Shown here one piece after another: positions 30,627 to 46,941 of a stretch of DNA of 64,000 bases. Source of the DNA: a virus (lineage: Duplodnaviria > Heunggongvirae > Uroviricota > Caudoviricetes); IMG/VR virus record IMGVR_UViG_2974564184_000001, positions 977 through 64,976 of that record; one strand, written 5' to 3'. The notes beneath the pieces were generated by a model. The model was not told the DNA's origin, ran no database searches, and was given only the letters and a program-made list of their open reading frames with translations. Numbering within the stretch: position 1 is the first letter of the stretch; the number at the start of each line of letters is the position of its first letter. A program made the translations under genes and the position numbers.

Positions 30627-31001
30627 CTAATCTTTCATGTATTCATCGAGGTATTTGACAACTAACTGCCAATCCTCACGTTTGCTTCGTTCATGATAGA
30701 GCGCGAACGCATCACGAACATACCGCTCTGCCACCGGACGAGACACACCGTTCACTTTCATAAAGTGGCGAAGTGCAATCTCACCACGACCGCGAATCCC
30801 GGCAAGGCCGATGTGCTTCACTTCGTGGCACGATGGACAGAGAGCAATCAACCCGGTAAGAGTGATTTTACCATCACCGAAGTCCCAAATCTCGTGGCAT
30901 TCGACGGGATGTTTATTCCCCTTGCCACCGCAGATCTCACACTTATACCCGGCTGCTGCATAACACTTCCGTCTGACCTTATCCCATTGGGCTTGGGTCA
31001 A
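30627..31001 (-). CDS. HNH-type zinc-finger endonuclease-like protein
   Basis: CEICGG...HPVECHEIWDF...LCPSCHEVKH. Confidence 0.5.
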   Translation of the reverse strand: MTQAQWDKVRRKCYAAAGYKCEICGGKGNKHPVECHEIWDFGDGKITLTGLIALCPSCHEVKHIGLAGIRGRGEIALRHFMKVNGVSRPVAERYVRDAFALYHERSKREDWQLVVKYLDEYMKD

Positions 31002-31544: not shown

Positions 31545-32435
31545 TTACTTAGATGCTGCCGGGATAGTCACGAACGGTGCCTGACTGTCGCCTGCCATGT
31601 AGACTGGCAGTACGCCGTCCCACTTAGCAATTGTATCCAGCTTAACAATCTCTGGGTTTTTGCGCAAGGCATCACCACGAAGATTGATTGAATCAGCTTG
31701 AGCTTTCGCTGCTGCCATCGTTGCGTAGGCTGACCCATCAGCTTCAAGTTTAGCAGATTCTGCTTTACCACGCGCTTCCTCGATTGCCATATTCGCTTCA
31801 GCAGTACGCTGTTTCACTTCCTGCTCACGCTGGAGCGTTTTCTGGTTAGCAGTCACTTTAGCGTTGATGCTTTCGATAACTGTTGGTGGGTAGTCCGGCT
31901 TACCCATCCAGCTAACACTGATCACTTCGATACCAACTGGCCCCATCTCGCGTTGAAGGTCAGTCAGTACGCCGTTCAGGATCTCATCCTTACCACCGTC
32001 AATGAACTTATCAGTATTCATTCGACTTGCACGACGGTTCAGAGAATCACTGATCTTCTGACGCAGGTCGGTGTCGGTGATGTCATCTACGCCTTTACGG
32101 TAAGTCTGGAACACCGTGGTCACCTTCGCCGGGGTCACTCGATATGCGATACCGATTGAGTAGCCGATGGTTGTACCGTCGCTCATCTGGAAGATGAACT
32201 GATCCGGGTAGGACTTCATCTGCTTGAAGGTCGGGAAGGTATACAGGTCTTCGTTCCAACCAACCCAGTAGCGACCAACACCCAGTGCTGTGGCGTCTAC
32301 GCCTTTTTCATCACCCAGACGGTTGACCATAACACCTGCGTTACCCGGTTCTACACGCTCGTAACAGCCTGACAGAGTGGTAGCTGCTACTGCGATTGCT
32401 GCTGCGAACAGGACACGCTTAATTGCTTTCATCAT
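31545..32435 (-). CDS. SPFH/band-7 (HflK/C-like) lipoprotein
   Basis: signal peptide with lipobox LSGC; SPFH-like core and Ala/Glu-rich coiled-coil tail. Confidence 0.6.
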   Translation of the reverse strand: MMKAIKRVLFAAAIAVAATTLSGCYERVEPGNAGVMVNRLGDEKGVDATALGVGRYWVGWNEDLYTFPTFKQMKSYPDQFIFQMSDGTTIGYSIGIAYRVTPAKVTTVFQTYRKGVDDITDTDLRQKISDSLNRRASRMNTDKFIDGGKDEILNGVLTDLQREMGPVGIEVISVSWMGKPDYPPTVIESINAKVTANQKTLQREQEVKQRTAEANMAIEEARGKAESAKLEADGSAYATMAAAKAQADSINLRGDALRKNPEIVKLDTIAKWDGVLPVYMAGDSQAPFVTIPAASK

Positions 32436-33548: not shown

Positions 33549-34232
33549 TCAAACGATAATTTTCGGTTTTCTGAAAGTAATCGGTTTAACAATTTTTCCA
33601 CCATCGGACAGGAACACGTACTGACCTGTCTCTTCGTTCAGCACAGAGTAAACACCCGAGTATTTACCCTCTTCACGACGCTCAATCTGAGCAGATTCGA
33701 ATTTCAACAACTCCTTGTCTGAAAGACCTTTACAATCAGGGTACGCCGCTCTTAGTTGTAGCATAGTTGGGAACTTGCTGTCGTTAGAGGCTAACACCTC
33801 TTCGATATTATAACGCAGATTAACATCCAGGCTATAAGCAAGAGCAACAACCTGCTTTAATGCCGTAGAGGGGTTGTCATCAAAGATAACAGCACGTTCC
33901 AGCGACAAGAGACTGAACTGGGTGTCTTCATCATACGAGCACAGGTATCCGTTACCGAAGGTTCCACCTTGGCGGAGATAGTGAGCGTAGGAAGCTACGA
34001 CAAACATATCACAAACGCCATCAACAACCTCGACCATATCTCCCAAACGGAGGGCATCCAAAGTCTCTTTGAATTCCTCGCGTAAGAATCCCATTTGTTT
34101 GTCTAAAGGCGTCAGAGCACCGCCCCGTGCAGATGCTGCCACCGCGTTCCAGGTGACAACATGGTCTGCATATTCACGCAGGCTTTTTGGACGAGCGATT
34201 TTGGTCAGGGTTTCATATAATAGATCAGCCAC
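33549..34232 (-). CDS. MazG-like all-alpha NTP pyrophosphohydrolase (possible dUTPase/dCTPase-type)
   Basis: LREEFKETLDAL (EExxE) and DMVEVVDGVCDM acidic metal-binding helices. Confidence 0.5.
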   Translation of the reverse strand: MADLLYETLTKIARPKSLREYADHVVTWNAVAASARGGALTPLDKQMGFLREEFKETLDALRLGDMVEVVDGVCDMFVVASYAHYLRQGGTFGNGYLCSYDEDTQFSLLSLERAVIFDDNPSTALKQVVALAYSLDVNLRYNIEEVLASNDSKFPTMLQLRAAYPDCKGLSDKELLKFESAQIERREEGKYSGVYSVLNEETGQYVFLSDGGKIVKPITFRKPKIIV

Positions 34233-34846: not shown

Positions 34847-35329
34847 TTAAGCTCCTACTTCCGTGACACGAAGCTCTGTCCAAGGACGAACAGCAATGTG
34901 GGTGCTGTCTTCCAGGAAGATCTTTGTCTCGTCATGATAGTTCTCAACGCTTTTGACTAAATACATTTTACCGCAATAGTCAAAAGTGTCACCCGATTGA
35001 ACATTCTCAGCCTTGAATACACCCGGCACACGGTCTTCGTTCTCAACAAGCTCATAGCTGTCGGCGAAGATGTCCGGTTTGCATGGATAGAACTCACCAG
35101 CGAGACCTTTGATGATCATGTCCCCAGCAGTTGCAGTCATCAGACCTTCCAGTGTTGGAATTTCCAATGTGCGACCGCAGTCGCGAGTTTCAATCTCCGC
35201 AGAACGGAAGGTTCCGGTTTCGATCCAATTTTTGATCTGCCCGACAGAAGTGCTCGACCCTGTAAAGCGATGAGCCTCGATTTCAACGGGCTTCTTACGG
35301 TATTTTGCCATTAGTTTAGCGGCTCCCAT
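34847..35329 (-). CDS. hypothetical protein
   Basis: 160-aa ORF. Confidence 0.45.
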   Translation of the reverse strand: MGAAKLMAKYRKKPVEIEAHRFTGSSTSVGQIKNWIETGTFRSAEIETRDCGRTLEIPTLEGLMTATAGDMIIKGLAGEFYPCKPDIFADSYELVENEDRVPGVFKAENVQSGDTFDYCGKMYLVKSVENYHDETKIFLEDSTHIAVRPWTELRVTEVGA

Positions 35330-36612
35330 GTTTCTGGATTAACTTCGCGTTCATACTGTCCCACCGGGAACTGAGGAACACCCTTGTCGGTACGCGCCTG
35401 GAAGCTAAAGGTGATGAACTTACCAATAAGTTTCAGCATCTTCGCTTGAGTTCGTTCAGCATGTGTACCTTTGATCTTGCAACTGAACTCAGTACCGTCT
35501 TTTTCGATACAGTCCAGAACGCCTTCTCCGTTCTTGTCTTCTTTTGAGCCTGTGACTTTCGCCTCGGCTGTCTGGAAGATCTTCCATTTCTGGAGATCGG
35601 AAGATCGCTGACCATATTCATACAAACCTTTGAAGTTGCGAATCATCGTTCCTTCAAAGCCAGCCTGCATGTTTACTCCCACTGACCACTCGACCTGCTC
35701 AATGGTATCGTAGAAGCACCCCATCACAACAGCAATTTTACTGTACTGCTGCTCCGCCACTGTGGAATAAGTGGTGAACAGGTCAGCAAGGCGGCACTGC
35801 TCTGGGAATTCAACTGAGTGCCACGGGCTGTTGTTGTTTACCGGGATATCGAAAATGTGGAACTGCAAGTCCGCACTCTCATAACCGCCGTAGCGATTAA
35901 CATCCAGTTCCGGGACAACATCAACGTCGATCATGTCACCGTCGAAGTTTTTGTATTTCTCCATACCTATCGAGATAGCTTTATCACGACGCTTCACATC
36001 ACCTTCGTAATCCTTCTGGATTTCTGCGGCAATTGTTGCATGGGTACGCCACTTCTTGGTCAGCGCCACAATCTTTTGCAGGCTCAACCCGTGAATGTAC
36101 AACTCGCCGTCGAATTTGTCAAACCCTGAATGATTGCTCAGGGAGACAACTTCATCCACCAGCTTACCCTGCACAGGATAGGTTTTGTTGCCTCGACTGT
36201 TGAAAGAAGGAACCCCGTCTTTTACCAGCACCAATGCACGAACACCATCCAGCTTTGGCTGTGTATAGCAGGGGACTTCAATGGCACTACCACGTTTCAG
36301 GTAGTCATGAGCAAGCATTGGGGTGAAGACCTCTTCGGCCTCCAACTGATCAGTGCTCTCACGATAACCTAAACGAACCTGCTTCTCCCACTTGGATTTT
36401 GCTTCCAGCAGCGCCTGGAAATCAGCGGAAGTTTCATTGGCACGACCAACGTTTTTCATTTCGCAGGTGGTGCGTTTCTGTTGCAGCTTGCCGCCCACCT
36501 TTCCGAACTCAACGATGACATCTGCACCTTCGGTGTAGACTTTCCATTGTTGGAAAGAGCCATCTTTGTTCAGTGCATACAGCGTAGGGGTGCTGTCAAT
36601 ATTAATCGACAT
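35311..36612 (-). CDS. ATP-dependent DNA ligase
   Basis: motif I TQPKLDGVRAL (KxDG), 433 aa. Confidence 0.75.
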   Translation of the reverse strand: MSINIDSTPTLYALNKDGSFQQWKVYTEGADVIVEFGKVGGKLQQKRTTCEMKNVGRANETSADFQALLEAKSKWEKQVRLGYRESTDQLEAEEVFTPMLAHDYLKRGSAIEVPCYTQPKLDGVRALVLVKDGVPSFNSRGNKTYPVQGKLVDEVVSLSNHSGFDKFDGELYIHGLSLQKIVALTKKWRTHATIAAEIQKDYEGDVKRRDKAISIGMEKYKNFDGDMIDVDVVPELDVNRYGGYESADLQFHIFDIPVNNNSPWHSVEFPEQCRLADLFTTYSTVAEQQYSKIAVVMGCFYDTIEQVEWSVGVNMQAGFEGTMIRNFKGLYEYGQRSSDLQKWKIFQTAEAKVTGSKEDKNGEGVLDCIEKDGTEFSCKIKGTHAERTQAKMLKLIGKFITFSFQARTDKGVPQFPVGQYEREVNPETWEPLN

Positions 36613-36820
36613 CAGTTTCTCCTGATTTTAGTCCGTCCAGGGCGATGGTCGTTTCACAACTATCACCGTATTCTTTGTGGAGACGGAGATAGTCCTCCGG
36701 CCCCGACCAGTCATTGTCCTTGGTTTTCCAACCATCTGCGAAAGCATCTTCAACGATGGTGATCAACTCCAGACGGGAGATGGTTATTTGGTCAGACAGG
36801 CTTACTTGCTTTGCAGACAT
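36602..36820 (-). CDS. hypothetical small protein
   Basis: 72-aa ORF. Confidence 0.35.
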   Translation of the reverse strand: MSAKQVSLSDQITISRLELITIVEDAFADGWKTKDNDWSGPEDYLRLHKEYGDSCETTIALDGLKSGETDVD

Positions 36821-37701
36821 GTTTTGCCCTCCAAGTGATCTTCAACCATCTTGATCAATTCAGGGTCACTGAACGCATCAACCGCGCCTTTATCCCAGTG
36901 TAAGATTCCAGCCTTGTCGAGGTTCTGCATGTCGCTTTTCGAGTAGACCGCACTGTTCCAATCGGTAGACATAGCTGCCTTCTGTGCCGCTTCTGCATTG
37001 TAGAGGTTAATTTCCACAACCTTCGCCCCCAGTTTCAGCTTGGGCTTCAACATATAGCGGAAGTCAATAACCTGCATCGAGCAACCAACGACCAGAATCA
37101 GATCCTGAGAGTTAATCGTGTAGCCAAGCTCGTACATATCATTGTACAGAGGCGCACTCTCTGAGAAGAATACCACATTTGGTTTCGCCCAGTGATAATC
37201 TTTCGGGTCAAAGTCTTCACCCGGAGCCAGTTCCAACATTTCTTCGTGGCCCATCGGCTTCTTGATCACACGCATCTCATTAAGGTAGCCGTGAACATGA
37301 ATGATATCATCCCGAGGAACACCTGCACGTTCCAGTAAGTCGTCAACGTTGGTTGTCAGATTGATAACTTGACCCGGGAAGCGATTGTACCACTCCGCCA
37401 CACGCAGGTGCGCCAGATTCGGGCCTACCGTAGGCAGTTCTTTACGACGCTTCTCGTAAAATTTATGCGTCAGATAGTACAGGTTCTCGCCAAAGGTGTT
37501 TGGCTGTTCCGAAACAGCGTTCGGAGGTGGATTTTCACTGTTACGGTGATGGAAACCCGCCTGGAAACCCGGGGCGTAGCACACATCGTCCAATGCGTAC
37601 TCATCCCAGAGCGCTTTTCCGCTATCCGTATCGGTACGGAAGGTACGGACTCCGCTCTCAGCGGAGAATCCAGCACCAGACACTACGATAAGGCGGCGCA
37701 T
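36802..37701 (-). CDS. Sir2-family (sirtuin-like) NAD-dependent protein
   Basis: VVSGAGFSAESGVRTFR (GAGISxxSGIPxFR), TTNVDDLLERAG (TQNIDxL), HVHG (HLHG). Confidence 0.8.
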   Translation of the reverse strand: MRRLIVVSGAGFSAESGVRTFRTDTDSGKALWDEYALDDVCYAPGFQAGFHHRNSENPPPNAVSEQPNTFGENLYYLTHKFYEKRRKELPTVGPNLAHLRVAEWYNRFPGQVINLTTNVDDLLERAGVPRDDIIHVHGYLNEMRVIKKPMGHEEMLELAPGEDFDPKDYHWAKPNVVFFSESAPLYNDMYELGYTINSQDLILVVGCSMQVIDFRYMLKPKLKLGAKVVEINLYNAEAAQKAAMSTDWNSAVYSKSDMQNLDKAGILHWDKGAVDAFSDPELIKMVEDHLEGKTCLQSK

Positions 37702-37925
37702 TATGCCACCTTGCTCGCAGTTTTACGACCACGGAACGCTTTCGCGTGACCCATGCGGCTTTCGAAAGGACGGATATCCATCAGATTGCTCTGTGAGTGG
37801 ACACCTTTCAGGAATTGACGGGTTTCACCAAGCAGTTTGGCTGTTGCAACTGACTCGCTCAGTTCGCCACGCTCAAATGCTTCGATGGTTGCCTTCATTG
37901 AGGCCATGTTCATACGCTTTTTCAT
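37701..37925 (-). CDS. hypothetical small protein
   Basis: 74-aa ORF. Confidence 0.35.
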   Translation of the reverse strand: MKKRMNMASMKATIEAFERGELSESVATAKLLGETRQFLKGVHSQSNLMDIRPFESRMGHAKAFRGRKTASKVA

Positions 37926-38140
37926 TGTGTCTCCTTCTTCAAAAGTGAGTTTGGGTCATTGTGACCTGATCCTAAGGCAAATGCAATCACTGCGGTAAGC
38001 ATTGTTGCACGTCTTGCTGGATTTTGCAACGTGACAATCACCTCTGGGAGACAATTGACATCGTACAGCAGGGACATTAACGGGGGGTTATCCCGGATAA
38101 ATGCCTTTCCAAGGTCACTCAGTCCACTATCGAACGCCAT
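37922..38140 (-). CDS. hypothetical small protein
   Basis: 72-aa ORF. Confidence 0.35.
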   Translation of the reverse strand: MAFDSGLSDLGKAFIRDNPPLMSLLYDVNCLPEVIVTLQNPARRATMLTAVIAFALGSGHNDPNSLLKKETQ

Positions 38141-38612
38141 AATTGGTCTCCTTTAGTAGTTTTCTGAGTCTGTCGAACTCCTCAATCATCCAGTCGTACT
38201 GTGGCAACTCGATAACCTTGGCATTGTCGGCAGAACCATAGTAGTAATAGTGAGCAAAAGGTAGTTCAGACTTCGCGAGAGCAATTAAGATCTGCTTGTT
38301 CTGTCTTAGTTTGCACCTTATCGCCTCCAGAATGACAGATTTCTGTTCCTCCGTCAAGCCTTCTTTGTCGATTCGGTCATCACGCTTTACCTTTCCCATC
38401 TTTTTGGCACCAAACCCCTTCGCTGTTAGGAACTCGGGGTGCTGACTTCCGGTCAGGAAGTAATACCAGAACCCCTCAAGGCTCTGAAAACTACCATAAC
38501 CGGGGACTGTGAATTCACAATCATGAAGATTTGTCAGCATTCTCCCAAGGGGTGTGGCACCTTTCGTGTAGATGTTGATATGATCAACACCATCATTGAC
38601 AGGTGACCACAT
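38127..38612 (-). CDS. NADAR (YbiA/DUF1768)-like domain protein
   Basis: hand alignment to E. coli YbiA: INIYTK~INFYS, G..TNL~G.FSNF, SLEGFWYYF~SEHYFQA, PFAHYYYYGS~HTENDAYWG. Confidence 0.5.
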   Translation of the reverse strand: MWSPVNDGVDHINIYTKGATPLGRMLTNLHDCEFTVPGYGSFQSLEGFWYYFLTGSQHPEFLTAKGFGAKKMGKVKRDDRIDKEGLTEEQKSVILEAIRCKLRQNKQILIALAKSELPFAHYYYYGSADNAKVIELPQYDWMIEEFDRLRKLLKETNYGVR

Positions 38613-38615
38613 AAC

Positions 38616-39026
38616 CTACCTCAGTTTCAGAGATTCACGGAGAGCAGACTCCTGACGGCGCATGGTTTTATCCGGTACGTCATGCAAAGAGCTGTTTCCA
38701 TGTCTATTCTCAACCACAATTGAGGTGACACGGTAGTCGAACTCCGCAGCCAGGTCAAGATAAACCTGCAAATCGCGTTGTTTGACGTTCGTATCAGAAA
38801 TGATCAATGGCCCTACACCTGCTTCCATTGACCGCTTCAACATGTTGTATACCCAGTTGTGAGCATGACGCAGCTTGCTTGCCTGCCAATCATACACCCC
38901 ATCCGCGTTGTACATGTACATGTCCGCTTCAATACGGTGACCTTTCAGGGCCACTTCCAGCTCTTCGGCAAGCGTTGACTTGCCGGAGCCTGAACATCCA
39001 CGGATGATGTATACCTTTTTAGCCAC
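38616..39026 (-). CDS. P-loop polynucleotide kinase-like protein (Pnkp kinase-domain-like)
   Basis: Walker A GCSGSGKST; 136 aa; adjacent to RNA ligase. Confidence 0.6.
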   Translation of the reverse strand: MAKKVYIIRGCSGSGKSTLAEELEVALKGHRIEADMYMYNADGVYDWQASKLRHAHNWVYNMLKRSMEAGVGPLIISDTNVKQRDLQVYLDLAAEFDYRVTSIVVENRHGNSSLHDVPDKTMRRQESALRESLKLR

Positions 39027-39939
39027 TTTGTCCTCCCTGTAGGAACTTTTCGATGTGTACGCGGCGATCCTGTTCTGCGATCACTGTCCACTCGTCTTTG
39101 GTGAAGTTACCACGAAGGTAATCCAGTAATGGGTAATACTCTTCGTCAATTGTTTTCTTGACGCGATCACCGTGCTCCCAGATTGCTTCGCACTTCTTAA
39201 CGCCACCACGCATGAAGAATTTCTTCGCCAGGTAATGTGGTGACTTGATTTTCAGCAGCAATTTCCCCGATTCTACATCGCGAACGATGAAGCCCTCATG
39301 GGTACACGTTTTAGCGGCCTGTACGGTGTCTGAGAAGAGACATTTGCGCCAAGCTGGGCGTTTCCATGTCGGAAGACACAAACCGTCCAGAGCGCTCTCT
39401 GAGAGCATTTGGCCCGTGTCCTTGACGCGAGCACCGATCAGGTACGCACCAGGTTCTTCATGAACGATGTGTGGGTCTGACGGATCAACGATTTCGAACA
39501 TCAAATCCAGCATGTTCCACGTCTTGCTATTAACAAGATTTGGTTTCTGATCGAAGTTAATGACCTTCTCCGCTAATCGGGCATAGTCAGAATCCAGCGT
39601 TCCGGTTGTAGATACCAACCATTTCCCGTTGTATACCGTTGCGCCAGCCATGAACCCGTTAACCTTCACCGTCTCGATCACGATGTTGTTAGGGTTGAGG
39701 TCGGTCTTATTCTCGCCACGATTAAAGATTTTGGTGAATGGGTGCAGCACCACATTATCGTCAGAATCAACCACAATGCCACGGCACTCCAGCAGACGTG
39801 GGTCACGCTTCCACATATTGTCCCAGAACACGCGACCGTGGTACTTAAAGACTCTAAGGCCATCAAACGGCCCATCAACATAGGTCTTTACGCGAACCAA
39901 ACCAGAAGCGATCAGGTCATCAACATTAAATTTGTTCAT
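39019..39939 (-). CDS. RNA ligase-like nucleotidyltransferase
   Basis: motif I KVNGFMAG (KxNG), size 306 aa, neighbouring kinase and phosphoesterase. Confidence 0.55.
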   Translation of the reverse strand: MNKFNVDDLIASGLVRVKTYVDGPFDGLRVFKYHGRVFWDNMWKRDPRLLECRGIVVDSDDNVVLHPFTKIFNRGENKTDLNPNNIVIETVKVNGFMAGATVYNGKWLVSTTGTLDSDYARLAEKVINFDQKPNLVNSKTWNMLDLMFEIVDPSDPHIVHEEPGAYLIGARVKDTGQMLSESALDGLCLPTWKRPAWRKCLFSDTVQAAKTCTHEGFIVRDVESGKLLLKIKSPHYLAKKFFMRGGVKKCEAIWEHGDRVKKTIDEEYYPLLDYLRGNFTKDEWTVIAEQDRRVHIEKFLQGGQSG

Positions 39940-40139
39940 CTTTGTCTCCGTAATGAGAGATTTTTAATAAGGCGCATGGCTTCTTTCTTCGCCAGCGCCA
40001 TTTCGAGGTGGTCATCATACTGGTAGGTATCTTCCATGTCAAGCATCCAATACGCCTCTTCCAGGAAATGAACCACATTGTCCACATCAGGCTTAGTGGT
40101 GATCCGTTTTCGCGACGGGTTTGGACATTGCGATGTCAT
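39936..40139 (-). CDS. hypothetical small protein
   Basis: 67-aa ORF. Confidence 0.35.
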   Translation of the reverse strand: MTSQCPNPSRKRITTKPDVDNVVHFLEEAYWMLDMEDTYQYDDHLEMALAKKEAMRLIKNLSLRRQR

Positions 40140-40665
40140 ACGCCTCCTTCAAGGTCAGGACACGCCCATGCACATCCCAACCCACATCCAGAATGCGTCC
40201 AGGTGCGGAGTACGAACCATGACTATGACCATGAAGCATAACAGAACCGTGGTGGCACTTGTTCCACACCGCGAAAGGATAATGCGACATGACGACTTTG
40301 TTGCCTTCGATTTCCGTTTCCACATAGTCCGTGACTTCATGCCCATACTCCAGGAAGATTTTCCGAGTCAGACGGTGGTCATGGTTGCCACGCAAGAGGA
40401 TGATATGCCCATAAACCTGATCCAGGAATCGACGCAAGGCGTCTTCTGCCTTCTTGCCGTAGGCGAGACTCACATCCCCCAAATGGTAAACCGTATCACC
40501 CTGCTTCACTGTGCTGTTCCAGATCTTAACGATCCCAGCATTCATTCGCAGAACGCTTGCAGGGTCTGTCTTAGGCCCGTACAGGTCATAACGGTATTTA
40601 TCACATGATTCAAATCCCAAAATATTCTTATGGGAATCATGCGTATCCGACGTAATGTGGATCAT
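40093..40665 (-). CDS. calcineurin-like metallophosphoesterase
   Basis: SDTHD, GDVS..., LLRGNHDH, HGHSH metallophosphatase motifs. Confidence 0.75.
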   Translation of the reverse strand: MIHITSDTHDSHKNILGFESCDKYRYDLYGPKTDPASVLRMNAGIVKIWNSTVKQGDTVYHLGDVSLAYGKKAEDALRRFLDQVYGHIILLRGNHDHRLTRKIFLEYGHEVTDYVETEIEGNKVVMSHYPFAVWNKCHHGSVMLHGHSHGSYSAPGRILDVGWDVHGRVLTLKEAYDIAMSKPVAKTDHH

Positions 40666-41708: not shown

Positions 41709-41734
41709 TCCGGTCTCCTTGTTAAGATGCTGCT

Positions 41735-41763
41735 ATCATACACTGAGTGACTCAGGAGTCAAC
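41735..41763 (-). promoter_or_regulatory. sigma70-like promoter (TTGACT-N16-TATGAT, minus strand) with embedded palindrome CTGAGT-C-ACTCAG
   Basis: read on minus strand: TTGACTcctgagtcactcagtgTATGAT then AAGGAGACCGGA-ATG of gene 41421..41708. Confidence 0.5.
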
Positions 41764-41860
41764 AAAAAGAAACAACAAACCCCCTATAAGGTCTTTAAGA
41801 TCTTAAAGTCTTTTGTTTTTATGTTTTATAAGTTAGTTTAGATCATAAGTTAGTATTGTA

Positions 41861-41974
41861 TACCCGACCGGGAATAATTAGGTATACCCGATTGGGAATA
41901 ATTAGGAGTTGACAGGTGTTGGGATGAAGTGTAGGCTATGACCCTAAATATACCCGAGAGGGAATAAATAGGAG
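41861..41974. repeat. three 24-bp direct repeats TATACCCGA-NN-GGGAATAA-N-TAGG (two tandem, one 42 bp downstream) flanking a TTGACA box
   Basis: 41861-41884, 41885-41908, 41951-41974; third copy abuts the TAGGAGG RBS of gene 41980. Confidence 0.8.
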
Positions 41975-41979
41975 GGTGT

Positions 41980-42348
41980 GTGGAGATAAGGCTTGGGGAA
42001 TCCACAGTGCAGATCAGGAAAGGGGCATACCTTACTGTTCCAACTGAGTGGGTTTTCGATGAGAGACTCTCCCCGCAGGATTTGCAAAGACTGATGAAGC
42101 TGTGGTGGCGATATGATTACTTCAAAAGCCTTAACCCAAGTGCGGGTGAAGAAGTTTTCTTCCCGTCACAGAAATCGCTTTGCCAACTCTTCGGGTTGAG
42201 TGAAAAATCGCAACCTAAGGTTTCAGAATTCTTGAAAAGGATGGAAGACTTAGGGTACATTAAACGAATCAGGTCTGGGTTTGTCGATACATCGGGTAAC
42301 GCGAAGCCAAGACACTTCATAATTGTCAACAGAGGAGACAAAACATGA
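41980..42348 (+). CDS. winged-helix DNA-binding protein (candidate regulator/iteron-binding)
   Basis: GTG start 4 nt after TAGGAGG; SQKSLCQLFGLSEKSQPKVSEFLKRMEDLGYIKR resembles wHTH. Confidence 0.45.
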   Translation: MEIRLGESTVQIRKGAYLTVPTEWVFDERLSPQDLQRLMKLWWRYDYFKSLNPSAGEEVFFPSQKSLCQLFGLSEKSQPKVSEFLKRMEDLGYIKRIRSGFVDTSGNAKPRHFIIVNRGDKT

Positions 42349-43196
42349 ACAACGTAACACTTCAACTGAACAACTTACAGGTTCCTGTCAAACACTTCAC
42401 CTTCAACGGTGGTGAGGAACAGGTTGTTATCGACCAAGCAGCCTCCCCGAAAGGTCGTGTGGCCTACGTGGATATCACTGCAAAGCTGAAAAGCTCAATG
42501 GATGTTATGACCCTGGTTATGCTGACTGATGCCTGCCGTCACATCCACAACCTGGATGATTGTGCTCGTTTCACTCTGCATATGCCATACATCCCTTACG
42601 CTCGTCAAGACCGTGTGATGAACGCAGGTGAAGCTGCTGCGGTGAAAGCATTCGTGAACGTGATCGCGGGACTGAAATTCGACAAAATTGTTGTCGCTGA
42701 TCCGCATAGCGATGTTGCTACCAATCTGCTGGATAACATCGGTGCTCGCCTGGAGGTAATCTCTCAGGACACCTTGTTCTCTGAATATATGGGAAACACT
42801 GGTGAGATCAAACGCAACACTCGCATTTGCACCGTGGGGCGTGGTAATCCGGTAATCGTCGCCCCTGATGCAGGCGCTCGCAAGAAAGCCCAGAAGGTTG
42901 CTGACCGTTATGGTTTCCGAATTGTAGAGGCTGGAAAAGTTCGTGATGTCCGGGATGGTAAGATCACCGGAACTTCCGTTCATGATGATGTGACCGGACT
43001 TCCTTGTATCATTGTGGACGATATCTGCGACGGTGGTCGTACTTTCGTTCCGCTGGCGGCGGCTCTGAAAGAGAAAGGTGCAAGCCAGGTAATCCTGTAC
43101 GTTACTCACGGCATCTTCTCAAACGGTAAACAGTTTCTTCTCGACGCAGGTATTGAGCAGGTTCATGCCTATTATGACTGGAAGGAGAACTTCTGA
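42345..43196 (+). CDS. ribose-phosphate pyrophosphokinase homolog (PRPP synthetase-like; candidate ADPR-PP synthetase of NAD reconstitution pathway)
   Basis: PYARQDR, DPHS, IIVDDICDGGRT PRS-family motifs. Confidence 0.75.
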   Translation: MNNVTLQLNNLQVPVKHFTFNGGEEQVVIDQAASPKGRVAYVDITAKLKSSMDVMTLVMLTDACRHIHNLDDCARFTLHMPYIPYARQDRVMNAGEAAAVKAFVNVIAGLKFDKIVVADPHSDVATNLLDNIGARLEVISQDTLFSEYMGNTGEIKRNTRICTVGRGNPVIVAPDAGARKKAQKVADRYGFRIVEAGKVRDVRDGKITGTSVHDDVTGLPCIIVDDICDGGRTFVPLAAALKEKGASQVILYVTHGIFSNGKQFLLDAGIEQVHAYYDWKENF

Positions 43197-43369: not shown

Positions 43370-45088
43370 ATGATTAATATGAACCCGCTTTTCGCAACTG
43401 ATTTCTACAAGCCGTCACATGCTGACCAGTACAATCAGAACAGCGAAGTAATCTTCTCGAACTTCACACCTCGTTCAGACAAACTGTTCCCACACTTCTC
43501 AGATGATGACCATCGTGTGGTTGTTGTCGGCACACAAGGTGTAGCGATTAACTTCCTGGTTGAATACTGGAATGACCAATTCTTCAAAAAACCGAAAAAC
43601 GAAGTGATCGGCGAGTACGTTGAAGAACTGAACCTGTCTCTGGGTATTCCGGTTGACAAAATTCGCACTGAACACATCGAAGCGCTGCATGATCTCGGTT
43701 ATCTGCCGTTAGAACTGCGTTCACTGCCGGAAGGTTCATTGGCCCCGGTACAAGTTCCGGTGTACACCATCCACAACACTGACCCGCGCTTCTTCTGGCT
43801 GACCAACTATTTCGAGACCGCTCTGTCGGCTGAGACCTGGAAGGTTATGAACAACGCAACTATTGCACACCAGTATTTCAAACTGTGCAAAGGTTTCAGT
43901 GACGAAACGTGTGATACTGCTGATCACTTGATGTTCCAGTGCCACGATTTCAGCTTCCGTGGTCTGAGCGGCATTGCGGACGCATACAAAAACGGCTTCG
44001 GTCACTTAACTTCTTTCTACGGTACTGATACCATCCCGGCAATTCGTTACGCTCGTCGTTACTACGGAATGCAGGGACAGTTCGTTGCAGGTTCAATCCC
44101 GGCATCTGAGCACAGTGTTGCAACAACAAACATCGGCGCGATTATCAAAAATCTGCTGAAAGACCCGAACTTCAAAGGTGCAACGCTGGACGAACTGCGT
44201 TATGCGGCTGAACTCGTGTTCTTGGAAAAGTACAGCACTGAAATTTATCCGAACGGATTGTGTTCGTATGTTTCTGACAGCTACGACTACTGGGCGGTTA
44301 TCCTGGCAATGCTGCCAGAGCTGAAAGATGAGATCATGGCTCGTGAAGGTAAGCTGGTAATCCGTCCAGACTCCGGTGACCCGATTCGCATCATTGCAGG
44401 TTATCGTTGGGTTGAACTGAAACAGTTCTCTGGCATCAATGCTGAGATGGTTCTGTTGCCAGGCGGCAAGTTCGTATCTTCTCGCGATATGTACGATGCG
44501 ATTCCTTGCGACGATACCCCGGTTGCTTATCACTTTGCGAAGCTGACCGAGGCGAATTTCAAAGAAGAGCAATTCGTCCCGGATCACATCGTGCATGGCA
44601 CCATTGAGTGTCTGTGGGATACCTTCGGTGGTCACCTGAACTCGAAAGGTTACCGTGTTCTTGATTCGCACATCGGCCTGATTTATGGTGACTCAATCAC
44701 TGTTGAACGTGCCAAAGCGATTATGCAGCGCCTGAAAGAGAAAGGTTATGCGTCAAGCAACATTGTGTTCGGTATCGGTTCGTACACTTACAACTACAGC
44801 ACTCGCGACAGCTTGGGCTTTGCATGTAAAGCGACTGGTTCCATCATCGCCGGAGAAGAAATCCTGGTGACCAAAGAGCCAAAAACAGACATGAAGAAAA
44901 AGTCTGCAAATGGTTTCCTGAAAGTGATCACCGACAAAAACGGTGTGTACAAACTGGTGGACGGTCTGAGCCTGGTAGACATCCAGGACGAGGATAATGA
45001 ATTAAAAATCATTTTCCGAAACGGTAAGCTGTACCGTAATACGACCCTGACGGAAATCCGTGAGCGTCTCATCGGACAGAAATCGTAA
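43370..45088 (+). CDS. nicotinamide phosphoribosyltransferase homolog (NAMPT/NadV-like; candidate Namat)
   Basis: AAGGAG RBS before ATG 43370; LFATDFYKPSHA N-terminal NAPRTase-family motif; 572 aa. Confidence 0.8.
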   Translation: MINMNPLFATDFYKPSHADQYNQNSEVIFSNFTPRSDKLFPHFSDDDHRVVVVGTQGVAINFLVEYWNDQFFKKPKNEVIGEYVEELNLSLGIPVDKIRTEHIEALHDLGYLPLELRSLPEGSLAPVQVPVYTIHNTDPRFFWLTNYFETALSAETWKVMNNATIAHQYFKLCKGFSDETCDTADHLMFQCHDFSFRGLSGIADAYKNGFGHLTSFYGTDTIPAIRYARRYYGMQGQFVAGSIPASEHSVATTNIGAIIKNLLKDPNFKGATLDELRYAAELVFLEKYSTEIYPNGLCSYVSDSYDYWAVILAMLPELKDEIMAREGKLVIRPDSGDPIRIIAGYRWVELKQFSGINAEMVLLPGGKFVSSRDMYDAIPCDDTPVAYHFAKLTEANFKEEQFVPDHIVHGTIECLWDTFGGHLNSKGYRVLDSHIGLIYGDSITVERAKAIMQRLKEKGYASSNIVFGIGSYTYNYSTRDSLGFACKATGSIIAGEEILVTKEPKTDMKKKSANGFLKVITDKNGVYKLVDGLSLVDIQDEDNELKIIFRNGKLYRNTTLTEIRERLIGQKS

Positions 45089-46316: not shown

Positions 46317-46392
46317 CGTGCAGTAGCTCAGGCGGTAGAGCAGCATCTTCATACGGTGACGGTCGGTGGTTCGAGTCCACCTTGCACGACCA
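46317..46392 (+). tRNA. tRNA-Met/fMet (anticodon CAT)
   Basis: acceptor CGTGCAG/TTGCACG, D-arm GCTCAGGCGGTAGAGC, loop TTCATAC, T-arm GGTGGTTCGAGTCCACC, ACCA. Confidence 0.7.
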
Positions 46393-46422
46393 AGACGATT
46401 TGAAAAATAATTTAGAAATTGT

Positions 46423-46451
46423 TTGACAATGCCACACTGATAGCTTAGTAT
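46423..46451 (+). promoter_or_regulatory. consensus promoter TTGACA-N17-TAGTAT
   Basis: upstream of gene 46514. Confidence 0.6.
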
Positions 46452-46513
46452 GAGCATCGTTGAGACAGAGACCAGCAAGAATGCTGGAAAATTAATCCAA
46501 AGAGGAGAACAAC

Positions 46514-46855
46514 ATGACCAAGAAGAAAACCGCCCCTAAGAAAGTTTCTGCAATTGATGCAATCAAGCAGCCTTTCCAGTACGAGTCCAAAACGACTCAG
46601 ACACACTCTCCGGCGAAAGACGTTCGTTTGGGCGGTACAGTGAAAACTGTCTCTGTCCGTAAGAAGGCCCGTGATGAAGACGGTAATGTCGTATTCGTGT
46701 ACGAGTCGAAGTCTAACGTAGAAGGCGGTCAGGTTATCTCCGCATCACATCGTATCCGCACTGGCAAGACCAAGCGTGAGCGTAACGCCAAAGTGCGTGA
46801 AGTGGTTAAAGCCGCTCCGGTAGAAACCAAAGGTTCTGCCAAAAAGAAAAAGTAA
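46514..46855 (+). CDS. Lys-rich basic protein
   Basis: 113 aa, AAGAGGAG RBS, K/R-rich termini. Confidence 0.5.
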   Translation: MTKKKTAPKKVSAIDAIKQPFQYESKTTQTHSPAKDVRLGGTVKTVSVRKKARDEDGNVVFVYESKSNVEGGQVISASHRIRTGKTKRERNAKVREVVKAAPVETKGSAKKKK

Positions 46856-46864
46856 AACAATTTC

Positions 46865-46941
46865 GGGGTATTAGCTCAGTTGGTTAGAGTAGCCGACTCT
46901 TAATCGGTAGGTCGAAGGTTCGAGTCCTTCATGCCCCACCA
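46865..46941 (+). tRNA. tRNA-Lys (CTT)
   Basis: GGGGTAT...anticodon loop CTCTTAA...GGTTCGAGTCC...ATGCCCCACCA. Confidence 0.7.

What the first reader, a model, noticed from the sequence alone, without database searches (positions are those of the whole stretch)
36802..38612. Phage sirtuin (Sir2) gene next to a NADAR/YbiA-like gene: an ADP-ribose/NAD module 4 kb from the NAD+ reconstitution operon
36802..37701 carries the canonical sirtuin motifs GAGxSxESGIxxFR, TxNVDxL and HxHG. 38127..38612 aligns by hand to E. coli YbiA (NADAR): INIYTK/INFYS, SLEGFWYYF/SEHYFQA and HYYYYGS/DAYWG. NADAR enzymes remove ADP-ribose from guanine in DNA and can reverse DarT toxin modification. Sir2 domains in bacteria are NADases or ADP-ribosyl/deacyl transferases. 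A phage that carries both an NAD-consuming fold and an NAD-rebuilding pathway suggests a coordinated counter-defence or host-takeover programme centred on ADP-ribosylation.
Basis: partly seen in the sequence, partly recalled or inferred. Interest (0 to 1): 0.65.

Follow-up and report, generated by a model that had tools for sequence, protein, structure and literature searches.

The report
Phage sirtuin beside divergent NADAR gene
In Erwinia phage Hena1 a zinc-less CobB-like sirtuin and a previously unnamed, very divergent relative of the T4 anti-DarT enzyme gp30.3 (NADAR fold) sit in one early RNA/DNA-repair operon, but their adjacency occurs only in this small phage lineage and both gene kinds are already known from phages.

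Summary
The window is Erwinia phage Hena1 (MN732867.1, Vequintavirinae). Both ORFs are real and at the stated coordinates.

- **Sirtuin, 36802-37701(-).** It is already annotated as Sir2-like. It belongs to a clade found in 986 phage records, including T5 and rV5. It is CobB-like, all catalytic motifs are intact, and the four zinc cysteines are lost.
- **NADAR residues.** The catalytic Glu (E46) and the His diagnostic of phage NADARs (H121) are invariant. The diphosphate-binding Lys is not kept (Q57).
- **Linkage.** Only 2 of 80 NADAR-like loci, and 2 of 58 sirtuin loci, carry both genes, and all are Hena1 relatives.
- **Context.** The block runs phosphoesterase, RNA ligase, kinase, X, sirtuin, DNA ligase, MazG. 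This is the sirtuin-centred "RNA repair" neighbourhood of Iyer et al. 2022. Hena1 has the NADAR-like gene where relatives have cREC.

Verdict: correct gene calls, and a useful new annotation for a family of about 2,000 clusters. A dedicated Sir2-NADAR-NARP module is not shown. New member of known kinds; modest interest.

The parts
36802..37701 (-). Phage-clade sirtuin (299 aa; Hena1_00780). CobB-like class III core, no zinc cysteines, clade-specific C-terminal extension.
   Evidence: Pfam SIR2 E = 7e-19 and PHROG 2162 E = 3e-85. Best PDB sequence hit is E. coli CobB 1s5p, E = 4e-19. AF2 pLDDT 89.8. Foldseek top hits are CobB, TM 0.79-0.83 normalised to the target. Clade alignments.
37636..37677 (-). 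NAD-binding motif GAGFSAESGVRTFR (residues 9-22).
   Evidence: Coordinates. G9, A10, G11, S13, S16, F21 and R22 are invariant in 52 clade members.
37444..37461 (-). FYEKRR (residues 81-86). Y82 and R85 align with CobB Y92 and R95, the class III acyl-carboxylate-binding pair.
   Evidence: Alignment to CobB. F81, Y82, R85 and R86 are invariant. The role of the pair in CobB/SIRT5 is from my knowledge of the literature.
37288..37356 (-). Catalytic core: TTNVDDL (residues 116-122) through HVHG (residues 135-138).
   Evidence: Coordinates. N118, D120, H137 and G138 are invariant.
38127..38612 (-). Divergent His-type (gp30.3-like) NADAR-fold protein (161 aa; Hena1_00810, annotated hypothetical).
38475..38477 (-). 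Codon of E46, equivalent to the catalytic Glu of NADARs (T4 E36, PnNADAR E43).
   Evidence: Alignments. Present in 54 of 54 family members. The role of the residue is from PMC11543638 and PMC11825919.
38250..38252 (-). Codon of H121. This is the diagnostic position: Glu in the YbiA family, Asp in DarT-linked NADARs, His in phage gp30.3 NADARs.
   Evidence: Aligns with T4 H123 and with the Glu of the Bas61 YbiA-like NADAR. Present in 54 of 54 members. The classification rule is from PMC11125620.
38442..38444 (-). Codon of Q57, where T4 AdfN has the functionally important K43. The Lys is not conserved here.
   Evidence: hhalign. Column counts: K in 24 of 54, Q in 14 of 54. The T4 K43A phenotype is described.
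37701..38140 (-). Two small ORFs (72 aa at 37922-38140; 74 aa at 37701-37925) between the NADAR-like gene and the sirtuin. Function unknown.
   Evidence: ORFs. No Pfam, PHROG or PADLOC hits. The 72-aa ORF is present in both Hena1-like loci (L009, L010); the 74-aa ORF only in L009.
36602..36820 (-). 72-aa ORF between the sirtuin and DNA ligase (PHROG 14200, unknown function).
38616..39026 (-). P-loop polynucleotide-kinase-like protein (136 aa).
   Evidence: Pfam AAA_33 E = 1.6e-11; PHROG 2071 and PHROG 505 (polynucleotide kinase).
39019..39939 (-). T4 Rnl1-type RNA ligase (306 aa).
   Evidence: Pfam RNA_lig_T4_1 E = 2e-8; PHROG 562 E = 8e-60.
40093..40665 (-). Calcineurin-like metallophosphoesterase (190 aa).
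   Evidence: Pfam Metallophos E = 4.5e-5; PHROG 547 E = 8e-48.
35311..36612 (-). ATP-dependent DNA ligase (433 aa).
   Evidence: Pfam DNA_ligase_A_M and the OB domain; PHROG 114.
33549..34232 (-). MazG-like nucleotide pyrophosphohydrolase (227 aa). It marks the end of the conserved block.
   Evidence: PHROG 671 E = 4e-21. Weak Pfam PRA-PH hit. Syntenic in Bas48, Bas61 and IMG/VR loci.
42345..43196 (+). Prs-like gene (Adps candidate) of the divergently transcribed NARP1-type pair.
   Evidence: Pfam Pribosyl_synth and Pribosyltran. PHROG 619. NCBIfam ribP_PPkin.
43370..45088 (+). Nampt-like gene (Namat candidate). GenBank start is at 43370; the open frame extends upstream to 43334.
   Evidence: Pfam NAPRTase E = 5e-35. 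PHROG 448 E = 1e-191. Annotation.

Best explanation
**Shown.** The two ORFs are real, separately evolving auxiliary genes. They lie in one tightly packed, leftward early-type gene array of Erwinia phage Hena1. The array reads, in order: metallophosphoesterase, Rnl1-type RNA ligase, P-loop kinase, NADAR-like, two small ORFs, sirtuin, small ORF, DNA ligase, orf160, MazG-like.

- The 161-aa protein is a divergent member of the NADAR superfamily. It is closest to the His-type phage clade typified by T4 gp30.3/AdfN.
- The sirtuin belongs to the large phage clade shared with T5 and rV5. It has a CobB-like class III core, an intact NAD-binding and catalytic apparatus, and no zinc site.

**Inferred, NADAR-like protein.** It most likely works as an ADP-ribosyl N-glycohydrolase. 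Glu46 and His121 would act at the ribose C1'' N-glycosidic bond and release free ADP-ribose from an ADP-ribosylated nucleobase. That would protect or repair phage nucleic acid modified by DarT-type host toxins. Related phages carry a different, experimentally validated NADAR type a few kb further along the same array, which fits this role. A soluble ADP-ribose conjugate is the alternative substrate.

**Inferred, sirtuin.** It consumes NAD+ in a reaction that has not been tested. Its conserved neighbours tie that reaction to healing of cleaved RNA, as Iyer et al. proposed: a KptA-like transfer of ADP-ribose to a 2'-phosphate.

**Inferred, link to the NAD operon.** Both reactions yield ADP-ribose-type products and nicotinamide. 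The Prs-like/Nampt-like (NARP1-type) operon 3.7 kb away could recycle these. That is a metabolic fit, not a demonstrated module. The direct juxtaposition of the sirtuin and the NADAR-like gene is a Henunavirus-specific arrangement.
For: **Identity and operon.**
- The window is 100% identical to Hena1; annotation.
- Gene junctions from the phosphoesterase to MazG range from -47 to +9 nt, and nearly all starts have SD-like GGAG sequences.
- No convincing terminator lies within the array.

**NADAR.**
- AF2 pLDDT 96.8.
- The top three Foldseek hits are YbiA, PnNADAR and GlNADAR; all other hits have TM < 0.2.
- The family profile's top PDB hit is 8bau.
- hhalign to the gp30.3 family: 95.6%, E = 1.1e-8, 140 aligned columns.
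- E46, H121 and N28 are invariant.
- 6 of 54 family members give sub-threshold PF08719 hits, 3 hit PF08010 and 1 hits PF22397.
- Among 81 multidomain members, DUF4326 occurs in 30, SLOG (YAcAr) in 30 and Macro in 2. These are the partners that Iyer et al. list for viral NADARs.
- Activity of relatives: T4 gp30.3 and every other NADAR tested hydrolyse ADP-ribosyl-guanine.

**Displacement idea.**
- 5 of the 8 cREC-containing rV5/Mydovirus-type loci, plus L149, carry a YbiA-like NADAR 5-6 kb downstream of the sirtuin on the same strand.
- That NADAR is a homologue of Bas61 gene 0107. I take gene 0107 to be the anti-DarT factor of Bas60-62 from its annotation, not from an accession.
- The Hena1 genome (all but the first 976 bases of the record) has no such gene and no cREC.

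**Sirtuin.** Its neighbourhood types in 58 loci are, and match.
Against: - No biochemical data exist for either protein or for any member of either family or clade.
- The Lys that binds the ADP-ribose diphosphate (T4 K43, PnNADAR K50) is Gln57 in Hena1, or Leu53 in the alternative register. It is Lys in only 24 of 54 family members. Other PnNADAR diphosphate contacts (W89, R93) are not recognisably conserved. The substrate may therefore differ, or activity may be reduced.
- The family's frequent fusions to SLOG, DUF4326 and Macro point to soluble ADP-ribose derivatives rather than DNA adducts.
- RNA healing and sealing could be completed by the kinase, phosphoesterase and ligase alone, so the sirtuin's proposed role is not required by the pathway logic.
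- The conserved Y82/R85 pair fits a desuccinylase-type protein deacylase just as well.
- Promoter and terminator scans are no better than shuffled sequence for promoters, so the single-operon claim rests on gene packing only.
Confidence: 0.55

Rival explanations
1. **First reader's model.** The sirtuin, the NADAR-like protein and the NARP1-type operon form one coordinated ADP-ribosylation programme. The sirtuin writes ADP-ribose onto a host or nucleic-acid target, or burns NAD+. The NADAR-like protein erases ADP-ribose. The Prs-like and Nampt-like enzymes rebuild NAD+.
For: - The genes are adjacent in one packed array, and the NARP1-type pair is 3.7 kb away, transcribed divergently from a shared intergenic region.
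- The same layout occurs in the two Hena1-like IMG/VR contigs.
- Writer/eraser pairs such as DarT-NADAR and sirtuin-Macro are known.
- A phage glycosidase (RyDEP) inserted in a NARP1 locus feeds ADP-ribose to NARP1.
- Hena1 also encodes PnuC and a NadR-like enzyme elsewhere.
Against: - The adjacency is confined to one lineage: 2 of 80 and 2 of 58 loci.
- In phi92-like Bas61 the sirtuin lies 30 kb from the otherwise syntenic block.
- T5-type phages carry the sirtuin with no NADAR and no NARP1-type genes nearby.
- Two unrelated small ORFs separate the two genes.
- Sirtuin deacylation products are O-acyl-ADP-ribose. Those are substrates of Macro domains, not of N-glycosidases (established chemistry).
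Confidence: 0.15
2. **NAD-dependent RNA repair with the NADAR-like protein as a component.** The sirtuin removes a 2'-phosphate from cleaved tRNA by transfer to NAD+, as KptA/Tpt1 does. The NADAR-like protein takes the place of the cREC enzyme of related phages and processes the ADP-ribose by-product or an RNA-linked ADP-ribose.
For: - The neighbourhood matches type 2 of Iyer et al.: sirtuin, T4-like ligase, nucleotide kinase, MazG and calcineurin-like phosphoesterase.
- In rV5-like Bas48 and in Mydovirus-type loci a cREC gene (PF20274, E = 9e-14) sits between the ligase and the sirtuin.
- The Hena1 genome (all but the first 976 bases of the record) lacks cREC and has the NADAR-like gene in that interval.
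- NADAR association with RNA repair has been noted before.
Against: - cREC is predicted to open cyclic phosphates. NADARs cleave N-glycosidic bonds. These are not equivalent chemistries.
- Across the NADAR-like family an RNA ligase lies within 6 kb in only 2 of 80 loci.
- The sirtuin's KptA-like role is itself only a prediction.
Confidence: 0.2
3. **Immune-signal or toxin degradation.** The NADAR-like protein degrades soluble ADP-ribose-derived immune signals or toxic metabolites, for example N-glycosidic ADP-ribose conjugates made by Thoeris-like systems. It would not repair DNA, and it would act independently of the sirtuin.
For: - Family-level fusions among 81 multidomain members: SLOG (YAcAr) in 30, DUF4326 in 30, DprA-like SLOG in 11 and Macro in 2.
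- Iyer et al. argue that phage Macro, NADAR, SLOG and DUF4326 proteins divide the labour on low-molecular-weight ADP-ribose derivatives.
- A Macro-like gene lies within 6 kb in 10 of 80 loci.
- The altered diphosphate-binding residues suggest a different substrate.
Against: - Every NADAR assayed so far acts on nucleobase-linked ADP-ribose in DNA.
- The closest characterised homologue is the DNA-acting T4 AdfN.
- In Hena1 the protein is stand-alone and sits among nucleic-acid repair genes.
Confidence: 0.25
4. **Host-protein deacylase.** The sirtuin is a CobB-like deacetylase/desuccinylase that reprogrammes host metabolism or transcription early in infection. It has no functional tie to the NADAR-like gene or to RNA repair.
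For: - Sequence and fold are closest to E. coli CobB, then SIRT5 and archaeal Sir2.
- The class III Tyr/Arg pair and all catalytic residues are invariant in 52 clade members.
- There are no hits to defence-type Sir2 models.
Against: - All four zinc-binding cysteines are lost across the clade. As far as I know, all characterised protein-deacylase sirtuins keep them.
- The protein scores far below the NCBIfam CobB cut-offs: 93 against 243 bits.
- Conserved neighbours are RNA-end-processing enzymes in 38 of 58 loci: HAD_SAK in 28, and the ligase/kinase block in 10.
Confidence: 0.25
5. **Non-catalytic binder.** The NADAR-like protein in Hena1 is catalytically weakened and acts mainly as a binder or sponge of ADP-ribose-containing ligands.
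For: The Lys equivalent to T4 K43 is Gln in Hena1. T4 K43A gives only partial rescue.
Against: E46, H121 and many aromatic and basic residues are invariant across 54 diverse members, including those without the Lys. That pattern is typical of an active enzyme under selection. The T4 K43A mutant retains partial function.
Confidence: 0.08

Closest known systems
T4 gp30.3 / AdfN(T4) (Pfam PF08010 Phage_30_3; His-type phage NADAR)
   Same: - Best profile-profile match: 95.6%, E = 1.1e-8 over 140 columns.
- Shared catalytic Glu and diagnostic His.
- Both genes lie close to the phage DNA ligase gene.
   Different: - The PF08010 HMM and a gp30.3-family HMM do not detect the Hena1 protein.
- The Lys equivalent to K43 is not conserved.
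- The Hena1 family has a family-specific N-terminal motif, P..DG.DHINIYSKG.
- Different phage lineages.
- The Hena1 family often occurs fused to SLOG, DUF4326 or Macro.
E. coli YbiA, Phytophthora NADAR (8bau) and Geobacter DarG1 NADAR (8bat) (Pfam PF08719 and PF22397)
   Same: Same alpha+beta fold. SNF-type motif, catalytic Glu, AKxxG motif and K..QN helix all align.
   Different: - 15-20% identity; no significant HMM hit to these Pfam families.
- His replaces the Glu or Asp of the last-strand position.
- Several ADP-ribose diphosphate contacts are not conserved.
- No DarT partner gene is present.
YbiA-like NADAR of phi92-like and Mydovirus-type phages (Bas61 gene 0107; I take this to be the anti-DarTG1 factor of Bas60-62, from its annotation)
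   Same: Same superfamily. It is encoded in the same early array as the sirtuin/ligase block in Mydovirus-type loci. Activity against DarTG1 was shown experimentally for the Bas60 protein.
   Different: Not orthologous: hhalign E = 0.018, BLASTP E = 0.023. It is Glu-type, not His-type, and sits at a different position in the array.
E. coli CobB / SIRT5 (class III sirtuins)
   Same: Best sequence and structure matches. NAD-binding and catalytic motifs, and the Tyr/Arg pair, are conserved.
   Different: No zinc cysteines. A 29-residue N-terminal insertion occurs in Hena1-like and some other members. A clade-specific C-terminal extension, GAVDAFSDP..VEDHLEG, is present. The protein scores below the NCBIfam equivalog cut-offs.
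Sirtuin-centred phage RNA-repair neighbourhoods (Iyer, Burroughs, Anantharaman, Aravind 2022, PMC9503650, section 3.7.3)
   Same: Sirtuin, T4-like RNA ligase, nucleotide kinase, MazG and calcineurin-like phosphoesterase, as in their type 2 neighbourhood prototyped by phage rV5.
   Different: Hena1 lacks the cREC gene. It has a NADAR-like gene and two small ORFs between the kinase and the sirtuin.
NARP1 (Adps + Namat) and the RyDEP-NARP1 synergy
   Same: An adjacent Prs-like and Nampt-like pair, as in Bas63. There is a precedent for a glycosidase that releases ADP-ribose and feeds NARP1.
   Different: - The Hena1 pair was not tested for the Namat selectivity clamp.
- Hena1 also has a NadR-like NMN adenylyltransferase and PnuC, so a classical NMN route is equally possible.
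- The NADAR-like gene is not inside the NAD operon.

Membership tests
NADAR superfamily | [quoted passage not shown] | tested here: met
NADAR superfamily | Significant match to the Pfam NADAR model PF08719. | tested here: not met
   No hit at E <= 10. 6 of 54 relatives hit only below threshold, best E = 0.024. The control T4 gp30.3 also fails PF08719.
NADAR superfamily | Catalytic Glu contacting the distal ribose (PnNADAR E43, E. coli C7 E88, T4 E36). | tested here: met
   E46 aligns. Present in 54 of 54 members.
NADAR superfamily | Lys coordinating the ADP-ribose diphosphate (PnNADAR K50, C7 K95, T4 K43). | tested here: not met
   The equivalent residue is Q57 by hhalign, or L53 by the HMM alignment to 8bau. 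Lys occurs in 24 of 54 members at the Q57 position; Lys or Arg occurs in 12 of 54 at the L53 position.
gp30.3-type (His-type) phage NADAR clade | His at the last-strand catalytic position that is Glu in the YbiA family and Asp in DarT-linked NADARs. | tested here: met
   H121 aligns with T4 H123. Present in 54 of 54 members. Rule from PMC11125620.
gp30.3-type (His-type) phage NADAR clade | Match to Pfam PF08010 (Phage_30_3). | tested here: not met
   No hit. A gp30.3-family HMM finds nothing in Hena1 at E <= 1. Only profile-profile comparison connects the two families.
AdfN (anti-DarT factor NADAR) | Removes ADP-ribose from DarT1-modified DNA and restores plating on DarTG1 hosts. | not testable with these tools
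   Shown for the T4, Bas32 and Bas60 proteins only.
Sirtuin (Pfam PF02146) | Sir2 domain above the gathering score, with GAGxSxxSGxxxFR, TxNxD and HG catalytic motifs. | tested here: met
   68.9 bits against a cut-off of 24. Motifs located and invariant in 52 sequences.
Sirtuin protein deacylases (CobB, SIRT1-7, Sir2Tm) | Cys4 zinc-binding small domain. | tested here: not met
   The protein has only three Cys (41, 207, 295) and none in CxxC pairs. No member of the phage clade has the CobB cysteines. Predicted beta-strands persist in that region.
Class III sirtuins (CobB/SIRT5) | Tyr-x-x-Arg pair in the acyl pocket. | tested here: met
   Y82 and R85 align with CobB Y92 and R95 and are invariant.
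Defence-type Sir2 NADases (ThsA, DSR, SIR2-HerA, SPARSA) | Similarity to defence Sir2 models. | tested here: not met
   No PADLOC hit at E <= 0.01. No defence Sir2 among the top 50 structural matches.
Sirtuin-centred RNA-repair neighbourhood, type 2 (Iyer et al. 2022) | Sirtuin linked to a T4-like RNA ligase, nucleotide kinase, MazG and calcineurin-like phosphoesterase. | tested here: met
   The same block occurs in 10 of 58 sirtuin loci.
Sirtuin-centred RNA-repair neighbourhood, type 2 (Iyer et al. 2022) | cREC (PF20274) gene in the block. | tested here: not met
   Present in Bas48, Bas61 and 8 IMG/VR loci. Absent from Hena1 record positions 977-148842, that is all but its first 976 bases (phmmer E <= 1).
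Writer/eraser or toxin-antitoxin pair (DarT-NADAR, sirtuin-Macro type) | Conserved adjacency of the transferase and hydrolase genes across lineages. | tested here: not met
   2 of 80 loci and 2 of 58 loci, all from one lineage.
NARP1 | Adjacent Prs-like (Adps) and Nampt-like (Namat) genes. | tested here: met
   42345-43196 and 43370-45088.
NARP1 | Namat adenine-binding selectivity clamp, and ADPR-PP chemistry. | not tested
   The criteria are described in PMC12774641. No alignment to SpbetaL1 or Bas63 Namat was made here.

The most novel reading that the evidence does not exclude
The zinc-less phage sirtuin and the His-type NADAR-like protein form a nucleic-acid ADP-ribosylation cycle inside an RNA/DNA repair operon. 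The sirtuin would transfer ADP-ribose from NAD+ onto an RNA 2'-phosphate or a nucleobase at a damaged end. The NADAR-like enzyme, standing in for the cREC of related phages, would clear the ADP-ribose adduct or by-product. The neighbouring NARP1-type enzymes would turn the released ADP-ribose and nicotinamide back into NAD+. That would make a closed, phage-encoded NAD-driven repair loop.
Probability: 0.1. Interest if true: 0.75.

Novelty: new member of a known kind. Interest (0 to 1): 0.35.

Why it matters
**Annotation gain.**
- Hena1_00810 and its relatives are labelled hypothetical and lack any Pfam family. They form about 2,000 clusters at 50% identity and occur in 451 phage records.
- They can now be filed as a His-type, gp30.3-related branch of the NADAR ADP-ribosyl-glycohydrolases.
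- This extends the known reach of potential anti-DarT or ADP-ribose-processing enzymes well beyond T4-like phages. It covers Kuttervirus, many jumbo phages, Vibrio phages and Henunavirus.

**Experimental opening.**
- The sirtuin clade occurs in 986 phage genomes, including the model phage T5, and has no tested function.
- Hena1 offers a natural variant of its conserved neighbourhood, with cREC absent and a NADAR present. This variant could help to test the RNA-repair hypothesis.

If the loop with the NAD-rebuilding operon were real, it would be a new kind of self-sustaining NAD-dependent repair or counter-defence circuit. Nothing here shows that it is.

Tried and rejected
1. **Pfam, NCBIfam, PADLOC and single-sequence PDB searches of the 161-aa protein.** No useful hits. 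Profiles and structure prediction were needed.
2. **hhalign of the family against single YbiA or single Bas61 NADAR.** Only weak signals, E 0.015-0.018 and probability about 3%. The register is correct, but these are not evidence on their own.
3. **Orthology with the Bas60-type anti-DarT NADAR of phi92-like phages.** Rejected.
4. **The idea that the 161-aa protein is the "cREC" of the published rV5-type neighbourhood.** Rejected. The cREC is a different 116-aa gene (PF20274) in Bas48 and Bas61, and Hena1 has none.
5. **Conserved Sir2-NADAR linkage.** Rejected by two neighbourhood surveys.
6. **Neighbour clustering around the NADAR-like gene.** The commonest neighbours came from one group of jumbo phages (split RNA polymerase, UvsX-like recombinase, virion proteins). 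They gave no functional clue.
7. **Promoter and terminator scans.** Not above shuffled expectation for promoters; nothing reliable.
8. **Supplementary tables of the two key papers.** Not held, so published lists could not be checked for Hena1 proteins.
9. **Residue-level structural superposition on 8bau.** Not possible with the tools. Active-site mapping rests on sequence and profile alignments.

Full report
**Source and observation.** The 4-kb stretch around the finding is 100% identical to Erwinia phage Hena1, MN732867.1 (Vequintavirinae, Henunavirus; window position = record position minus 976). Both ORFs exist as described, on the minus strand. 36802-37701 is annotated "putative Sir2-like protein" (Hena1_00780). 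38127-38612 is annotated "hypothetical protein" (Hena1_00810). The Prs-like/Nampt-like pair starts at 42345 on the other strand, 3.7 kb away.

**The sirtuin: identity.** Pfam SIR2 scores E = 7e-19 (68.9 bits against a cut-off of 24) and PHROG 2162 scores E = 3e-85.
- The best solved relative by sequence is E. coli CobB, E = 4e-19.
- The AlphaFold model (pLDDT 89.8) is closest to CobB (TM 0.79-0.83 normalised to the target). Archaeal Sir2, SIRT5 and SIRT2 follow. No defence-type Sir2 appears among the top 50.
- No PADLOC defence model is hit.

**The sirtuin: distribution and conservation.** tblastn finds the clade in 986 phage records, including T5 (T5.102, 50% identity) and rV5-like and phi92-like phages. 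In 52 diverse members the NAD-binding and catalytic residues are invariant. So is the Tyr82/Arg85 pair, which aligns with CobB Tyr92/Arg95.

**The sirtuin: departures from CobB.** None of the clade has the four zinc cysteines of CobB. All members share a C-terminal extension, GAVDAFSDP..VEDHLEG. The protein scores far below NCBIfam's CobB cut-offs. It is therefore an active-looking but atypical class III-derived sirtuin, not a CobB equivalent and not a defence-type NADase.

**The 161-aa protein: sequence evidence.** Pfam gives nothing even at E <= 10. PHROGs places it in two families of unknown function. A single-sequence PDB search is empty. A database search found 169 homologues. None has a Pfam domain, apart from a few that are fused to DUF4326.
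- A profile of 54 of these homologues (A1) puts a NADAR chain (8bau) first among 177,635 PDB sequences, E = 0.005.
- The same profile picks E. coli YbiA as its first non-family hit among 1,251 local ORF segments.

**The 161-aa protein: structure evidence.** The AlphaFold model is very confident, pLDDT 96.8.
- The three best Foldseek matches are YbiA, the Phytophthora NADAR with bound ADP-ribose and the Geobacter DarG1 NADAR. Every other match has TM below 0.2.

**Which NADAR clade.** T4 gp30.3 (AdfN) was fetched from the T4 record.
- hhalign of A1 against gp30.3 alone gives 88%, E = 3e-6.
- hhalign of A1 against a 50-member gp30.3 family alignment (A2) gives 95.6%, E = 1.1e-8 over 140 columns.
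- gp30.3 itself does not hit PF08719. It has its own Pfam family, PF08010, and YbiA hits that family only weakly. The missing PF08719 hit therefore does not refute NADAR membership.
- Among the 54 family members, the commonest sub-threshold Pfam hits are NADAR (6 members), Phage_30_3 (3) and NADAR-DarT1 (1).

**Residues of the NADAR-like protein.** E46 aligns with the catalytic Glu (T4 E36, PnNADAR E43). H121 aligns with T4 H123. Both are invariant.
- The literature defines NADAR subfamilies by that second position: Glu in YbiA, Asp in DarT-linked NADARs, His in phage gp30.3 proteins. The Hena1 protein is therefore a His-type NADAR.
- The Lys that binds the ADP-ribose diphosphate (T4 K43, PnNADAR K50) is not kept. 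Hena1 has Q57, or L53 in the other register. Only 24 of 54 relatives have Lys at the Q57 position.
- T4 K43A gives only partial rescue of RB69 on DarTG1. This is a real caveat for equating the two activities.

**Family size and architecture.** The A1 profile finds 2,031 clusters (50% identity) at E <= 0.001 among 1.84 billion representatives. tblastn finds the gene in 451 phage records, including Kuttervirus, many jumbo phages, Vibrio phages and Erwinia phages.
- Many members are multidomain. Of 81 such proteins, 30 carry DUF4326, 30 carry a YAcAr SLOG domain, 11 carry a DprA-like SLOG domain and 2 carry a Macro domain.
- These are the partners that Iyer et al. 2022 list for viral NADAR domains. 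Specialists using sensitive profiles have very probably already counted this family as NADAR.
- It is not the same gene as the YbiA-like NADAR of phi92-like phages (Bas61 gene 0107). I take that gene to be the anti-DarT factor of Bas60-62, from its annotation. hhalign gives E = 0.018.

**Context in Hena1.** From 40665 down to 33549 the minus strand carries, in order:
- metallophosphoesterase;
- a 67-aa ORF;
- Rnl1-type RNA ligase;
- P-loop kinase;
- the NADAR-like gene;
- ORFs of 72 and 74 aa;
- the sirtuin;
- a 72-aa ORF;
- DNA ligase;
- orf160, and ORFs of 120 and 83 aa;
- a MazG-like pyrophosphohydrolase.

Junctions range from -47 to +9 nt, and most starts have SD-like GGAG sequences. Consensus promoter scans are not informative. 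The array diverges from the rightward HTH, Prs-like, Nampt-like and tRNA cluster at 41709-41979.

**Context compared with the literature and with relatives.** This is the second of three sirtuin-centred neighbourhoods that Iyer et al. describe and interpret as NAD-dependent RNA repair. In their model the sirtuin acts like KptA/Tpt1.
- In rV5-like Bas48 the order is RNA ligase, cREC (PF20274, E = 9e-14), sirtuin, MazG-like ... DNA ligase.
- In phi92-like Bas61 the block is present together with cREC and the Prs/Nampt pair, but the sirtuin lies 30 kb away.
- In T5 the sirtuin is followed by a HAD "Swiss-army-knife" RNA-repair phosphatase.

**Is there a Sir2-NADAR module?** Two surveys say no.
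- Of 80 IMG/VR loci encoding relatives of the NADAR-like protein, only two have a sirtuin, RNA ligase or kinase within 6 kb. Both are Hena1-like contigs of about 147 kb.
- Of 58 loci encoding the sirtuin clade, 28 are T5-type with HAD_SAK. Eight have the full ligase, kinase, phosphoesterase, MazG, DNA ligase block with cREC. Two are Hena1-type, with the NADAR-like gene and no cREC.

One observation does link the two functions loosely. In 5 of the 8 cREC-containing loci, and in one further locus, a canonical YbiA-like NADAR lies 5-6 kb downstream of the sirtuin on the same strand. This NADAR is a homologue of Bas61 gene 0107. The rest of the Hena1 record (all but its first 976 bases) has no YbiA-like NADAR and no cREC. 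It has a single NADAR-like gene, and a Macro gene close to RNA ligase 2. A NADAR of one clade or another therefore recurs in this early array. Hena1 seems to have replaced the type and moved the position.

**Most likely mechanism.**
- *Shown:* the fold, the homology, the conserved Glu/His pair, the gene order, and the distribution of the two genes.
- *Inferred for the NADAR-like protein:* it is an ADP-ribosyl N-glycohydrolase that frees ADP-ribose from a nucleobase adduct (AdfN-like, countering DarT-type toxins) or from a soluble ADP-ribose conjugate. The nearest characterised homologue and the repair-gene context favour the nucleobase substrate. The family's fusions and the altered diphosphate site favour the soluble substrate.
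- *Inferred for the sirtuin:* it is an NAD-consuming enzyme tied by conserved context to RNA end healing. A CobB-like deacylase role cannot be excluded.
- *Inferred for the NAD operon:* free ADP-ribose and nicotinamide are the inputs of NARP1. A 2026 preprint shows a different phage glycosidase feeding NARP1 in this way. Whether the Hena1 pair is NARP1 or classical Prs/NadV was not tested. Hena1 also has a NadR-like enzyme and PnuC.

**Novelty and score.** The sirtuin is already annotated and its neighbourhood is published. Phage NADARs, their His-type clade and anti-DarT activity are published too. Three things are new here:
- the specific assignment of a large family without any Pfam model to the gp30.3-related NADAR branch, with residue mapping;
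- the finding that half of that family lacks the catalytic-site Lys;
- the Hena1-specific neighbourhood variant, with NADAR in and cREC out.

This is a new member of known kinds, of modest interest (0.35). The most novel reading that is not excluded is a sirtuin/NADAR nucleic-acid ADP-ribosylation cycle coupled to NAD regeneration. I rate it at about 10%.

Noticed in passing
MN732867.1 record 97875-100106 (outside the window; L094 32976-35207): Hena1 also encodes a PnuC-type nicotinamide-mononucleotide transporter and a NadR-like NMN adenylyltransferase. Its NAD toolkit is therefore larger than the Prs/Nampt pair, and a classical NMN route is possible.
   Followed up: no
MN732867.1 record 120680-123332 (outside the window; L095 5881-8533): A second RNA ligase (Rnl2/RnlB type) lies about 1.1 kb, five small ORFs away, from a Macro-domain homologue (Hena1_02180, phmmer E = 2e-43 to the Bas61 macrodomain protein). 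This is another possible ADP-ribose/RNA-repair pairing in the same phage.
   Followed up: partly
window 34847-35329 (-): A 160-aa ORF (PHROG 419, unknown function; weak hit to a "nucleotide pyrophosphohydrolase" PHROG) is conserved immediately after the DNA ligase in Hena1-, rV5- and Mydovirus-type blocks.
   Followed up: partly
Proteins P0041, P0094, P0099, P0101 and 81 multidomain representatives (alignment A6): The NADAR-like domain is frequently fused to DUF4326 and to YAcAr/DprA-like SLOG domains. It is occasionally fused to Macro, DUF488, a pyrimidine-dimer glycosylase domain or BRCT.
   Followed up: partly
window 36802-37701 (-), residues 48-76: Hena1-like and some other sirtuins carry an insertion of about 29 residues after the first helix. 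T5, rV5-like Bas48 and CobB lack it. It is predicted with high confidence (pLDDT about 96).
   Followed up: no
window 41709-42348: A divergent intergenic region separates the leftward repair array from a rightward cluster. That cluster opens with a winged-helix (ArsR/DnaD-like) 122-aa protein just before the Prs-like gene. A promoter-like site (TTGACT, 16 nt spacer, TATGAT) faces leftward at 41762-41735.
   Followed up: no
window 46317-46941 (+): tRNA-Met and tRNA-Lys genes follow the Prs/Nampt cluster. The order repair array, NAD pair, tRNA block is shared with phi92-like Bas61.
   Followed up: no
window 31545-32435 (-) and 30627-31001 (-): An SPFH/band-7 family protein and an HNH endonuclease lie further along the same leftward array.
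   Followed up: no
L139 and L012 (IMG/VR contig 3300004634_000001, 58 kb): One unrelated 58-kb viral contig carries both the sirtuin clade and the NADAR-like family, but about 15 kb apart.
   Followed up: no
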